In this document: in pieces, positions 39,444-49,888 of the stretch
Position numbering within the stretch: the first letter of the stretch is position 1
Layout: each line of letters opens with the position of its first letter
Source of the DNA: Tubiluchus corallicola
Lineage: Eukaryota; Animalia; Priapulida
NCBI GenBank assembly: GCA_030141605.1
Contig: JAQGDQ010000043.1
Coordinates: forward strand, 62,001-126,000
DNA length: 64,000 bases
Reading direction: 5' to 3'
The notes under the pieces: model-generated
Told to the model about the DNA's origin: nothing
Databases searched by the model: none
The model's input: only the letters and a program-made list of their open reading frames with translations
Position numbers and translations under genes: made by a program

Positions 39444-42400
39444 GATACACCAGGCTTCGTAGTTAATCATTTAATCTATCCCTACATCTGCGAAGCCATG
39501 CGAATGTACGAACGAGGTAAGCTAGCGCTAACTTATGAAATGCACCTATTAAGGTATTTAGTAACAGTTCCTGATGCGCCTGTCAGTTCTTGATTGTGTT
39601 TAACGACTCAAAAGGTTATTGATTTTATGATATGTTTATGAATTCCTGGTTGTCCTCTGACGTGCTTACTAGTTGTTAACCTGTCTGATGTGACTACCAA
39701 TTTTTCATGTATTTAAACTGTATATGAGGTGCTACTGATTTTCAATTCTGTCTGATGTGCCTACCATATCTTGATTTGCGTGAGAATACTGGGCTATCTA
39801 ATTGTGCCTGATAAATATTTTGTACTGCACATAGTTTATACCATTCTGTTTGATATTTTGATGGTTAAGCGTCATATGCTTTGCCACACGGTTACAATGA
39901 AACAGTCATTTTGTGCCGGTCCATCTGGTTCTTCTAACTATAATACCTAGAAATTTGGTGATATGGAAGTGTCTTACAGGAAATGAAAAATCTTGAGAGT
40001 GACTAGTCTATGATTATAAACATAAACACATTTTTACACATAGAATTTTGACAAATCATTTTATCTAATATTATTTTTACTATGAATCTGTGACACGGCA
40101 TTGAACAACATTAACAGATGTATGGCATGGTGTTTAATCAATTTTATTTGAGCGTCACCTAATAAAGTGTAGTAGTAAAGTGTCAAATGTGAGATTTCTG
40201 CAAATACCCTACAATATGAGAAATCTTTGCACCAAGCATTGTTTATTTTACCTGTCAATGTCTACATAAAATAAACAAAGAATTCTGCTATATGTCTAAT
40301 TATTATTTTAAGATTAATCAGTGAAAAATAATTTTTCTCTTTCTGAAGCTAAGAGTCTTGCATTTGATGTTTCTTAGCTGACCGGTACTGACATTGAATT
40401 GCAAGTTAAAGTACACTACACCTAGTGTCAAAGGGGTTAATTACTGATTTTCTGTCTGTTGGTTTACTATTCTATTAAGGTAAAATTTTTGGAATTGACT
40501 TTGTAATAACATCGCAGTGTTTTCACCTCTGAATGTATTGACAACTCACTATAAAACGGGCTATATAGTATGTGTTTGCTGTGGTTTTTAGCAATCACTA
40601 CTATACTAAAATTGTCGTTTTAGCTTAAGAAAAATTTTCATGTGCTGAGTTGTGTATCAATCAAACATAGTGAGCCCACTTCAGAAAAAATTACGAGTTA
40701 GGAGATTAAAAAATATTTCCTACAAATTCAACTTATTTAATTGGCACATGTAGGTCGTTGATTTTAGTGTCAGCATTTTACGTGAATTTTTGTGTCTAAT
40801 TCGAACTTGCTGATCAAGGTATACTGATGCTGATTCTTCTGTACTTATCGTTACAACAATTTTTGAGTTGGCAAGCTGATTAGCAAACGTAGAAACTGAC
40901 AACGTAATACGTTTTACAGAGTTAAGCTGTCCCTTTTGTGACATGGAAATGATAAAAGTGATTAGTCTCATTTCAAATGGTGAAGTGTTTAACAACTTTG
41001 TAACAATTGATATTTGGTAGAATTCCCATATTGATAAGTTTACTTCCTGCATTTATATAGTTTTTCACCTGATACATTGTGATGCCTTAAAACAAAAAGA
41101 AGAACGGCAAGCAAAACATTGATTTGACTAATGAATTAGTGACAACGTTTGACCCTTGAAGAAAGAAATATTAGATATAAATACTTAAAGGTTCACAAAG
41201 CTGGAAAAGAAGCCATCTAAATGCAATTGAAACGTCTCTTTCTGAAAGGATCTTGTCACATGTATCCTTGTACAATTGCTGATGCTTTGCTTTTATACAG
41301 AATAGTGAAAAATTGATAATGAATGTACAAATTTAAGTAGTTTTGCTGTTAAAAATGAAAAGTTTATTAGTATAAGAAGTGCATGTATATCTGCGGTTTT
41401 GCACTTGCATGAATTCAGTACTCGTTTTCAGGTGAGGCAAGTATTCAGGACATTGATGATGCTATGCGCTTAGGAGCCGGTTATCCCAAAGGACCTTTCC
41501 GTCTTGCTGACCTGATTGGATTAGATTTGATCAAAAATATCGTAGATCGTGAGTATAATTATTGCTACCAAGCTATCAAAGCTTTAGATCAAGACGTGAC
41601 AGCAAATAGCATTTAGAAGGCCGAGGGAGCGCTACTGCTTTTTTGCATGTTTTGTAGCAAAATTCAGATTTTCATTACATTAGGTAAGAGGGAAAGCATG
41701 TGCATGTAACAGCCAATGCTCAGCAATACTTGAGTTTGTTTAGATGGATCCATGCATGATTATCACAAAAATTGCTTCTGGATGATTGCTTTTGTCACTA
41801 TAAATGTAGTACAGTAATCGCCGCTTAATAGACTCACTTTGGGACCGACGTGTTTAACCGAATTAACCGATGGGTGTAGTTTTACTTCTATAGAAGTATG
41901 ATTCATCAGCTTACTATGCACCGCAATGGCTTTTAACCAATTTTTGAAATGAAGTAATGCCTAAATTCATTTGTGCAGTCAAAAATTAGGAAAAAATTTT
42001 AAAATATTAATTTATATAAGTGAATTAACAATAAATTAAAAAATATACTTTTCTAAATCACCCAAGTCTGTTTATTTGCAAAAATTACAAAAATTCCTTC
42101 AAAGTTGGCTACTTCATTTTCTCGCGAAGAAGTTGGCTCACAAAGTTCTCGTAATTATAAAATGTTGAAAATCTATTGCTGTGTGATGCACGTATTTTCG
42201 TAAAACATTTAGTGCTTGGCGTGCTTGAGCATTTTCTTTGCCAAATCTTTTGCTTTGTGTCGCATTAAAGGAGCGTTCACCCGAGCATTTTTTTCTCTTG
42301 AGTTTGTAAACCACACTAGATGCTAGATTCTCATTTTGGCTTGCTGACTGCTCAGTTTCAGATCGTTTTTTCAATATTCTGCTGAGTGTACTTTGGGAAA

Positions 42401-48600: not shown

Positions 48601-49888
48601 TCCGGCCTCATGTGCTATCATCACTCCAATAAGACTCCGTATACCTACCCGAGATTGAAACACAATATTGTCTGCATTGTCTAAAGGCTTTTCAATGCCG
48701 TAATTCTGTTTGAATGTTGCTAGTGGCAATCTGAGGGCCTCTCCTAATTCATCCAGTGGGATATTAATTGCCTTGGGTATCTTGCCATCCAACTGCAGTT
48801 CTTCTGGCTCGCGCACATCAATCAAGACAATTGAACTCATTGTCTTGTATAATTCATCATGTGTTATTTCAACCTCCTTCATATTTGGAATCCGAACTTC
48901 AAAATCGTTCAAAATATCACAAAGGTGTTCTTTGTCTTTATGCGATTTCTCTTCAGTATTTTCTGGCAACGTATTCTCGTGAAGTTTGCGAAATCGTTCA
49001 GTTTCTTCTCGACATCTCTCTACTAGTTTGTTGTTTGTGAGAACTTGGGTGATCGAAACAAACACCACTAATGGTGTGATAAACAAAAACTGCCTGTGGA
49101 GCAACATTTTGAGGTTGCACAAAACTTTATGTGAAGAGTGGATCAAGACTTGCTAAACACAAAAATAAATTGTGTAATAAGTAGTTTTGTTATGTTACAC
49201 TTATGAAATGGAAAACTGTAGTGACATAATTAGGGTTGTGTGCCTGTCTTAGTGTGAACTTTACATTAGTTGAAGTTTAATCAGCTGTACAAATTCACAC
49301 TCATAATAATCGCTCGGCTTACCCTTAACTTGGTTGTATCATTGGTAGTGTAGTGCAGGTTTTACGCTTATATTAAATATTGTAAATACGAGTCAAACTC
49401 GCTACCAGTTAGTGATATCTATGCGAAAAAATTATTTTATCTCATTCAAACACATTCAAGTTCTGATAATTTGCTCTGCTGGCGTGTATTTATGTTATTG
49501 GTGCTGAAATGCTATGCTGCTGAGTAAGGTAACAAATTGGTTGATTGAGCGATTCAGTTTGACTGACAGTCTTGTACAATACAAGTTCTGTATGCAGAAT
49601 ATTTGTTCGTCTGTCTGTCGTAGGCATTCTTTTCTTTACTTGACTCTCCATCTGTTCCTTCGTGTCATAATCTACTCCTCTATGTAAATAAAAAATGTTT
49701 TTCCTGATTATATACGTCGTTATCATTATATGTGTTAACAAGAAATATTTTATGTTTGTGTTTAAGGGTGGTACAAGAAGCATCCTGAAAATGTGCTATT
49801 TGCACCTAGCAAAACTCTGGATCGTCTCGTTGCTGAAGGAAAACTGGGAAGAAAAACAGGAGAAGGTTTCTACAAATGGAAGAAATAA
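45610..49888 (+). CDS. HADH: HADH C-terminal cassette b (exons 6b, 7b, 8b), canonical-like dimerisation domain
   Basis: 45610-45682 [24 protein letters not shown]; 46677-46793 [39 protein letters not shown]; 49767-49888 [40 protein letters not shown]. Confidence 0.93.
48514..49107 (-). CDS. Intronless single-domain rhodanese (Hsp67Bb/TSTD-like) with signal peptide; catalytic Cys replaced by Ser; nested antisense in a HADH intron
   Basis: First ATG at 49107, 197 aa; [35 protein letters not shown] and YPGGTAEW motifs; C-terminal KIEL; minus-strand AATAAA at 48317-48322. Confidence 0.88.
   Translation of the reverse strand: MLLHRQFLFITPLVVFVSITQVLTNNKLVERCREETERFRKLHENTLPENTEEKSHKDKEHLCDILNDFEVRIPNMKEVEITHDELYKTMSSIVLIDVREPEELQLDGKIPKAINIPLDELGEALRLPLATFKQNYGIEKPLDNADNIVFQSRVGIRSLIGVMIAHEAGYTKVKHYPGGTAEWLEKAIEKLRQKIEL

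What the first reader, a model, noticed from the sequence alone, without database searches (positions are those of the whole stretch)
39444..49888. HADH with two swappable three-exon cassettes for the C-terminal dimerisation domain
Seen: one set of exons 1-5 is followed by exons 6-7-8 twice (73/117/119 nt and 73/117/122 nt), with identical phases, canonical splice sites, no internal stops, separate stop codons and a poly(A) signal after cassette a. No second exon 1-5 set lies in the 1.6 kb between cassettes. The copies differ at many silent and replacement sites, so the duplication is old yet both remain intact. Known: this domain mediates homodimerisation and contributes to the acyl-CoA site. 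Inference: alternative 3' splicing/polyadenylation joins one NAD-binding domain to either of two dimerisation domains. Hybrids 6a-7b-8b and 6a-7a-8b are also in frame, giving up to four isoforms and possible heterodimers. I know of no description of this for HADH.
Basis: partly seen in the sequence, partly recalled or inferred. Interest (0 to 1): 0.85.

Follow-up and report, generated by a model that had tools for sequence, protein, structure and literature searches.

The report
Fat-burning enzyme with two swappable ends
An invertebrate's gene for the fat-burning enzyme HADH carries two intact, long-diverged four-exon endings behind one shared front; the first ending is spliced on in a public contig, the second likely is too, and a predicted RNA base-pairing switch would pick one ending at a time, likely giving two enzymes with different subunit-pairing surfaces.

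Summary
The duplication is real but larger than reported. A missed exon 5b (45115-45204) makes each cassette four exons (5-8), so the branch point is the exon-4 donor. Exons 1-4 occur once in the window. The cassettes share 70 of 132 residues, synonymous sites are saturated and both frames are intact. A 961-nt contig of run X2 joins exons 1-5a, a 73-nt exon, 7a and 8a. Isoform b was not seen spliced. One 17-nt site in intron 4 pairs perfectly with the spacer ahead of 5b and, alternatively, with a site just ahead of 5a. That is the docking/selector layout shown for Drosophila 3' cassette genes (PMC6191721); here it is only predicted. Cassette b is canonical. Cassette a evolves about 3.5 times faster and changes dimer-interface and cavity residues (R209H, M244K, E248R). 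HADH end-swapping is already annotated: RefSeq X1/X2 pairs of four moth and butterfly genera swap the last 72-78 residues. This scan also noted a twin HADH exon in another genome (unchecked). Verdict: new member of a known gene architecture; interest moderate.

The parts
28817..28924 (+). HADH exon 1 (coding part; mitochondrial-type leader and GxGxxG), shared
   Evidence: its 3' end is the loose end of the X2 contig
34273..34413 (+). exon 2, shared
   Evidence: spliced in X2 contig
35406..35563 (+). exon 3, shared
   Evidence: spliced in X2 contig
37207..37333 (+). exon 4, shared; carries the catalytic His-Glu pair (human His158/Glu170); its donor is the branch point
   Evidence: residue roles from PMC10988713
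37765..37781 (+). predicted docking site in intron 4
   Evidence: perfect 17-bp complement of 44519-44535; alternative partner 37936-37949
37936..37949 (+). predicted selector a, 40-53 nt before the 5a acceptor (14 pairs with the dock, 4 of them G-U, one bulge)
   Evidence: pair probability 0.78-1.0 in a fold of intron 4; 17 of 2000 shuffles as good
37989..38078 (+). exon 5a (90 nt)
   Evidence: spliced in X2 contig
39444..39516 (+). exon 6a (73 nt; N208, Y214, E217 kept; R209H, L211I, V212Y)
   Evidence: the X2 contig has a 73-nt exon at this place that the tool did not lay
41432..41548 (+). exon 7a (117 nt; M244K, E248R, L at 252, I at 253)
   Evidence: spliced in X2 contig
43862..43980 (+). 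exon 8a coding part with TAA
   Evidence: X2 contig reads through the stop to 44006
44116..44121 (+). AATAAA, likely poly(A) signal of isoform a
44519..44535 (+). predicted selector b, 580 nt before the 5b acceptor
   Evidence: tblastn E 0.18-0.46; profile iE 0.017, AG/GT, same length and phase as 5a
45610..45682 (+). exon 6b (73 nt; canonical N208, R209, Y214, E217)
46677..46793 (+). exon 7b (117 nt; canonical PMGPFE motif)
   Evidence: covered without differences by an X1 contig
49767..49888 (+). exon 8b coding part with TAA; AATAAA at 49884, 50276 and 50347

Best explanation
This is one HADH gene with shared exons 1-4 and an old tandem duplicate of exons 5-8; exon 4 is spliced to cassette a and likely, alternatively, to cassette b, and one intronic docking site is predicted to pair with a selector ahead of either cassette so that only one is used. 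Shown: the exon layout, both intact frames, the spliced a form and the base complementarity. Inferred: the dock pairs first with the nearby selector a, giving 5a-8a and cleavage near 44116. If transcription passes 44535 first, the much stronger pairing with selector b loops out all of cassette a with its poly(A) site and brings exon 4 to 5b. Both products keep the same NAD site and His-Glu pair but exchange every element of the known dimer interface (beta7-beta8, alpha8, alpha9). Isoform b would be the ordinary beta-oxidation enzyme. Isoform a would be a retuned enzyme with a weaker inter-subunit salt bridge (R209H) and an altered catalytic cavity.
For: Exons 1-4 occur once and 5-8 twice; all 5 of 5 in-order combinations are in frame. 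The X2 contig joins exons 2-3-4-5a-[73 nt]-7a-8a, with GT..AG ends shown at 3 of its 5 listed joints. The 18 listed X2 coding differences (of 48 counted in those pieces) leave the protein unchanged, counting 35514+35516 as one Leu codon. Cassette b stays intact despite saturated silent sites (pS 0.76, dN 0.41) and is as close to 20 homologues as they are to each other (e.g. exon 6: 0.82 versus 0.76). a and b are sisters in a 27-row tree (96/90), with end branches 0.95 and 0.27. Dock to selector b: 0 of 1000 shuffles of intron 4 x spacer reach 16 bp and 0 of 500 reach its energy. Dock to selector a: 17 of 2000 shuffles. Both use the same dock bases. This layout was shown by mutation in Drosophila PGRP-LC and CG42235 (PMC6191721). 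RefSeq HADH isoform pairs in four lepidopteran genera share 231-232 residues and then swap a homologous end.
Against: No junction into cassette b has been observed. The pairing was found post hoc. Gene-wide, 13 of 200 shuffles give a 17-bp complement somewhere, and 4 of 2639 real tile pairs reach 17 bp (this pair, the transposon ends, two others). A 12-nt match in exon 3 also pairs with the dock (-22.5 kcal/mol, stronger than selector a) and is unexplained. No related genome was available to test conservation or covariation. Cassette b also carries 4 residues seen in 0 of 176 homologues (H183, H195, S199, H238). Exon 6a was not itself laid on the X2 contig. The homologue set leans to Lepidoptera. 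In C. elegans HAD, losing the matching Arg lowers Vmax only to 62% and the dimer remains (PMC3999109), so R209H need not mean a new function.
Confidence: 0.7

Rival explanations
1. Both isoforms are made, but the choice rests only on poly(A)-site use and splicing proteins; the complementary stretches are chance.
For: 13 of 200 whole-gene shuffles give a 17-bp complement; selector a is fifth of 372 sites in the gene by energy; there is no conservation test.
Against: The pair sits exactly where docking/selector pairs sit; location-specific controls give 0 of 1000 and 17 of 2000; it is the top site in an unbiased scan of intron 4 against the spacer.
Confidence: 0.12
2. Cassette b is a recently silenced relic; cassette a has taken over and is the only product.
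For: Only the a form has been seen spliced; b has 4 residues not seen in 176 homologues.
Against: All 4 of 4 b exons keep frame and splice sites; b departs at 4 of 50 highly conserved columns against 7 for a; the duplication is old, so silencing would have to be very recent.
Confidence: 0.09
3. Cassette b is the 3' half of a second HADH gene whose exons 1-4 lie elsewhere (misassembly, interleaved gene or trans-splicing).
For: No whole genome was held to look for another exon 1-4 set; no laid contig spans from 8a to 5b.
Against: No N in the window; a and b introns share no similarity beyond the exon 6 borders, so a collapse has nothing to collapse on; only 1134 nt lie between 8a and 5b, with no exon 1-4 trace; the spacer carries a perfect complement of intron 4 of this gene.
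Confidence: 0.07
4. The exons are read in one chain as N-C-C, a pseudo-dimer like the HAD part of MFE1 (domains D and E, PMC10988713).
For: That architecture exists in the family; some moth gene models join both ends (P0002, P0004, P0005).
Against: 8a ends in TAA and the X2 contig reads through it into the UTR; cassette b starts with exon 5, which is not part of a second dimerisation domain; RefSeq models the moth ends as alternatives.
Confidence: 0.02

Closest known systems
Drosophila 3' tandem-cassette genes with competing RNA pairing: PGRP-LC, CG42235, Pip (PMC6191721; abstract, introduction and passages read)
   Same: Shared 5' exons, tandem multi-exon 3' cassettes born by partial duplication, each with its own 3' end; one docking site pairs with selectors upstream of the cassettes.
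   Different: There it is conserved across species and proven by mutation; here it is predicted from one sequence. Here the gene is a housekeeping mitochondrial enzyme with two cassettes, and the distal selector is the stronger.
Lepidopteran HADH 'B0272.3' isoforms X1/X2 (Achroia XP_059057660.1/XP_059057661.1; Ostrinia XP_063829283.1/XP_063829284.1; Vanessa tameamea XP_026500989.1/XP_026500991.2; Bicyclus XP_023935577.1/XP_023935578.1)
   Same: One HADH gene with two homologous alternative C-terminal ends (43-53 of 72-74 tail residues identical in one pair per genus).
   Different: The swap starts after residue 231-232 (equivalent of exons 7-8 only; alpha8 and beta7-beta8 are shared); both ends stay near-canonical; independent origin, since window a+b and the moth ends form separate supported clades.
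Human HADH/SCHAD (PDB 1F0Y, 3HAD) and C. elegans HAD (4J0F; PMC3999109, parts 1, 3 and 4 of 6 read)
   Same: Eight-exon HADH layout, GxGxxG, His-Glu pair, N208; exon 6a aligns to human residues 201-224 and the exon 7 copies to 224-263.
   Different: Those are homodimers of one C-terminal type; the window gene has two versions of the whole interface, and version a lacks the Arg of the inter-subunit Arg-Glu bridge.

Membership tests
HADH (medium/short-chain L-3-hydroxyacyl-CoA dehydrogenase) | 3HCDH_N plus 3HCDH C-terminal domain | tested here: met
   Pfam PF02737 for exons 1, 3, 4 (3 of 3 tested) and PF00725 for 6 of 6 exon 6-8 copies
HADH | GxGxxG, catalytic His-Glu pair, Asn208 | tested here: met
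   N208 in both cassettes and in 176 of 176 homologues
HADH | Arg209-Glu217' inter-subunit salt bridge | tested here: inconclusive
   Met in b; not met in a (His, 0 of 176 homologues; Glu217 kept)
HADH | NAD-dependent 3-hydroxyacyl-CoA oxidation by a dimer | not testable with these tools
   needs an enzyme assay
3' tandem-cassette gene | Shared 5' exons present once, homologous 3' cassettes in tandem, each with its own stop and poly(A) signal | tested here: met
   (window only)
3' tandem-cassette gene | Each cassette is spliced to the shared exons | tested here: inconclusive
   a seen; b not observed in the one RNA-like run available
Competing RNA pairing (docking site/selector) | One docking site complementary, with the same bases, to a selector upstream of each cassette | tested here: met
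   weaker gene-wide control
Competing RNA pairing (docking site/selector) | Conservation or covariation across species | not testable with these tools
   no genome held; no close relative found
Competing RNA pairing (docking site/selector) | Disruptive and compensatory mutations shift and restore cassette use | not testable with these tools
   needs a minigene

The most novel reading that the evidence does not exclude
An RNA switch exchanges the entire dimer interface of a core beta-oxidation enzyme. Isoform a is a neofunctionalised HADH with new substrate preference (two new basic residues in the PMGPFE loop and a non-aromatic residue at 252), it forms asymmetric a/b heterodimers with a single Arg-Glu bridge, and the HADH C-terminus is a repeated target of such duplication in unrelated animals (this lineage and Lepidoptera).
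Probability: 0.3. Interest if true: 0.7.

Novelty: new member of a known kind. Interest (0 to 1): 0.5.

Why it matters
It would be a natural experiment on how the HADH dimer interface tunes catalysis, the question raised by human disease mutations there (PMC3999109): two enzymes with an identical NAD site and catalytic pair but different interfaces. It would also extend competing RNA pairing at 3' cassettes from a few Drosophila genes to a metabolic enzyme of another invertebrate, and with the moth isoforms it shows convergent end-swapping in one gene. The gene architecture itself is known.

Tried and rejected
No whole genome is held. No RNA holder was listed for 43400-50400; X2 came in only by species label and is RNA by a guess. 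X2 contigs do not cover 5b-8b or the nested rhodanese at 80-85% likeness; contigs of one 13-million-letter run drop rare forms, so this is not evidence of silence. X1 covers parts of the spacer and 7b without mismatches but may be the window's own source and does not bridge the cassettes. A word search with exon 3 gave 21 candidates, none significant. A profile search with 7a gave 1050 hits, 150 listed, best single stretch 73% identical, so no close relative of cassette a. Single-exon PDB searches with 5a and 5b gave only chance hits. Alignments of exons onto a full-length homologue misplaced several exons and were not used. The whole-gene shuffle counted self-overlapping palindromes and was redone. 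P0001 (Diploptera) is two joined paralogues and P0075 an insertion model, not cassettes; Ostrinia P0184/P0122 and the Dendrolimus and Danaus pairs are paralogues; Bombyx mandarina X1/X3 differ by one residue only. Weak complements 41752-41765/44557-44570 and 41636-41664/46910-46938 are within chance. The taxon was not resolved by my trees or the atlas. No fold or complex job was run, as the spliced proteins are not contiguous in the window.

Full report
Observation. Shared exons 1-4 lie at 28817-28924, 34273-34413, 35406-35563 and 37207-37333. A weak tblastn hit revealed a second exon 5 at 45115-45204. A profile of 44 of the 120 proteins fetched, run on all six frames of the window, found exons 1-4 once and exons 5-8 twice, with 5b scoring above 5a and the next hit at iE 5.4. 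The cassette is therefore four exons and the switch lies at the exon-4 donor.

Age and selection. The cassettes share 70 of 132 residues; pS is 0.76 (saturated), dN 0.41, and 11 of 33 four-fold sites agree. Their introns share nothing beyond the exon 6 borders. In a 27-row tree they are sisters (96/90), with end branches 0.95 for a and 0.27 for b; the tool flags a as a long branch. The duplication is thus old and confined to this lineage among the rows sampled. Mean identity to 20 homologues for exons 5-8 is 0.40/0.82/0.73/0.55 for b and 0.30/0.63/0.65/0.49 for a, against 0.45/0.76/0.77/0.50 among the homologues.

Expression. Run X2 (RNA by a guess, same species label, 48 differences over 782 laid letters) holds one 961-nt contig. 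The 18 coding differences listed are silent, two of them jointly within one Leu codon. Isoform a is therefore a spliced, constrained product. Isoform b was not observed; the data cannot speak against it.

Switch. Apart from the ends of a transposon-like element, the longest perfect complement in the 21-kb gene is 17 bp, between intron 4 (37765-37781) and the spacer ahead of 5b (44519-44535). None of 1000 shuffles of these two regions reaches 16 bp. Gene-wide, 13 of 200 shuffles reach 17 bp, and 4 of 2639 real tile pairs do. Folded alone, intron 4 pairs the same dock bases with 37936-37949, just ahead of the 5a acceptor (14 pairs, 4 G-U, -18.1 kcal/mol). When the spacer is present they switch to selector b (-33.7 with flanks). 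17 of 2000 shuffles and 4 of 319 window tiles, two of them selector b and exon 3, match selector a's energy. [quoted passage not shown] Here it is a prediction from one sequence. The 12-nt match in exon 3 is unexplained.

Protein consequence. PMC3999109 (parts 1, 3 and 4 of 6 read) gives the HAD dimer interface as alpha8/alpha8' plus beta7-beta8 against alpha9', with an Arg-Glu' bridge (C. elegans R204-E212, human R209-E217 by the alignments). By residue range these elements fall in exons 5, 6 and 7, so the cassette carries the whole interface (inference), while the His158-Glu170 pair (PMC10988713, passages) stays in shared exon 4. Cassette a keeps N208, Y214, E217, P246 and L249 but has H209, I211, Y212, K244, R248, I253, N260 and R264, each seen in 0 of 176 homologues. 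It has Leu at 252, where 169 of 176 have Tyr or Phe. Position 252 corresponds, by the offset, to Phe230 of a bacterial homologue, which is described as shaping the catalytic cavity (PMC11476959, section 2.4 and passages). Cassette b has 4 such unique residues. Loss of the Arg in the worm enzyme leaves a dimer with 62% Vmax. A retuned rather than dead isoform a is the likeliest reading; a changed substrate range is inference.

Precedent. A search with the exon 7 copies returned moth gene models with two C-terminal ends. A follow-up search and cluster look-up gave RefSeq X1/X2 pairs in Achroia, Ostrinia, Vanessa and Bicyclus that are identical for 231-232 residues and then swap a homologous end; a fifth pair (Bombyx mandarina) differs by one residue only. 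These form their own clade, so the two cases are convergent, and the moth swap is the smaller. Paper searches found no description of HADH end-swapping; I saw their listings only, and most subscription journals and all supplements were not searched. An unchecked note of this scan reports a twin HADH exon in another genome. Other unchecked notes suggest this genome is of a priapulid and has a docking/selector system in Dscam; I could not test either.

Verdict. Real, larger than reported, and best read as a two-way 3' cassette switch (0.7 overall; about 0.8 that b is spliced, about 0.6 that the pairing steers it; these odds are my judgement). It is a new member of a known architecture with an annotated parallel in the same gene family. 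Interest 0.5.

Noticed in passing
window 48514-49107, - strand: Intronless 197-aa rhodanese-domain ORF (PF00581) nested antisense in intron 7b; Ser stands where rhodaneses usually have the catalytic Cys (motif position recalled). Nearest atlas clusters are arthropod rhodaneses at score 0.88, a lead only.
   Followed up: partly
window 50573-51763, - strand: Intronless 396-aa rhodopsin-type GPCR (PF00001) converging on the HADH 3' end.
   Followed up: partly
window about 20000-28658, - strand: M14 carboxypeptidase gene (weak PF00246 hit on its first exon) head-to-head with HADH, start codons about 160 nt apart; likely a shared promoter.
   Followed up: no
window 41807-43068: Transposon-like element with 31-nt terminal inverted repeats in intron 7a, very high depth in X1.
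   Followed up: partly
window 35449-35460: 12 nt of exon 3 are identical to part of selector b and so also complementary to the dock (-22.5 kcal/mol); unexplained.
   Followed up: partly
window 35768-37049: 26-nt minisatellite, about 50 copies, fills most of intron 3.
   Followed up: no
window 46241-46264 / 46517-46540: 24-nt inverted repeat (92%) in intron 6b, 136 nt before exon 7b.
   Followed up: no
window 58578-61428, - strand: Two ORFs resembling the endonuclease and reverse transcriptase of a LINE-type element, frameshifted (family from recall).
   Followed up: no
P0137/P0124 and related: Lepidopteran HADH paralogue with two alternative last exons across moths and butterflies; apparently annotated only.
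   Followed up: partly
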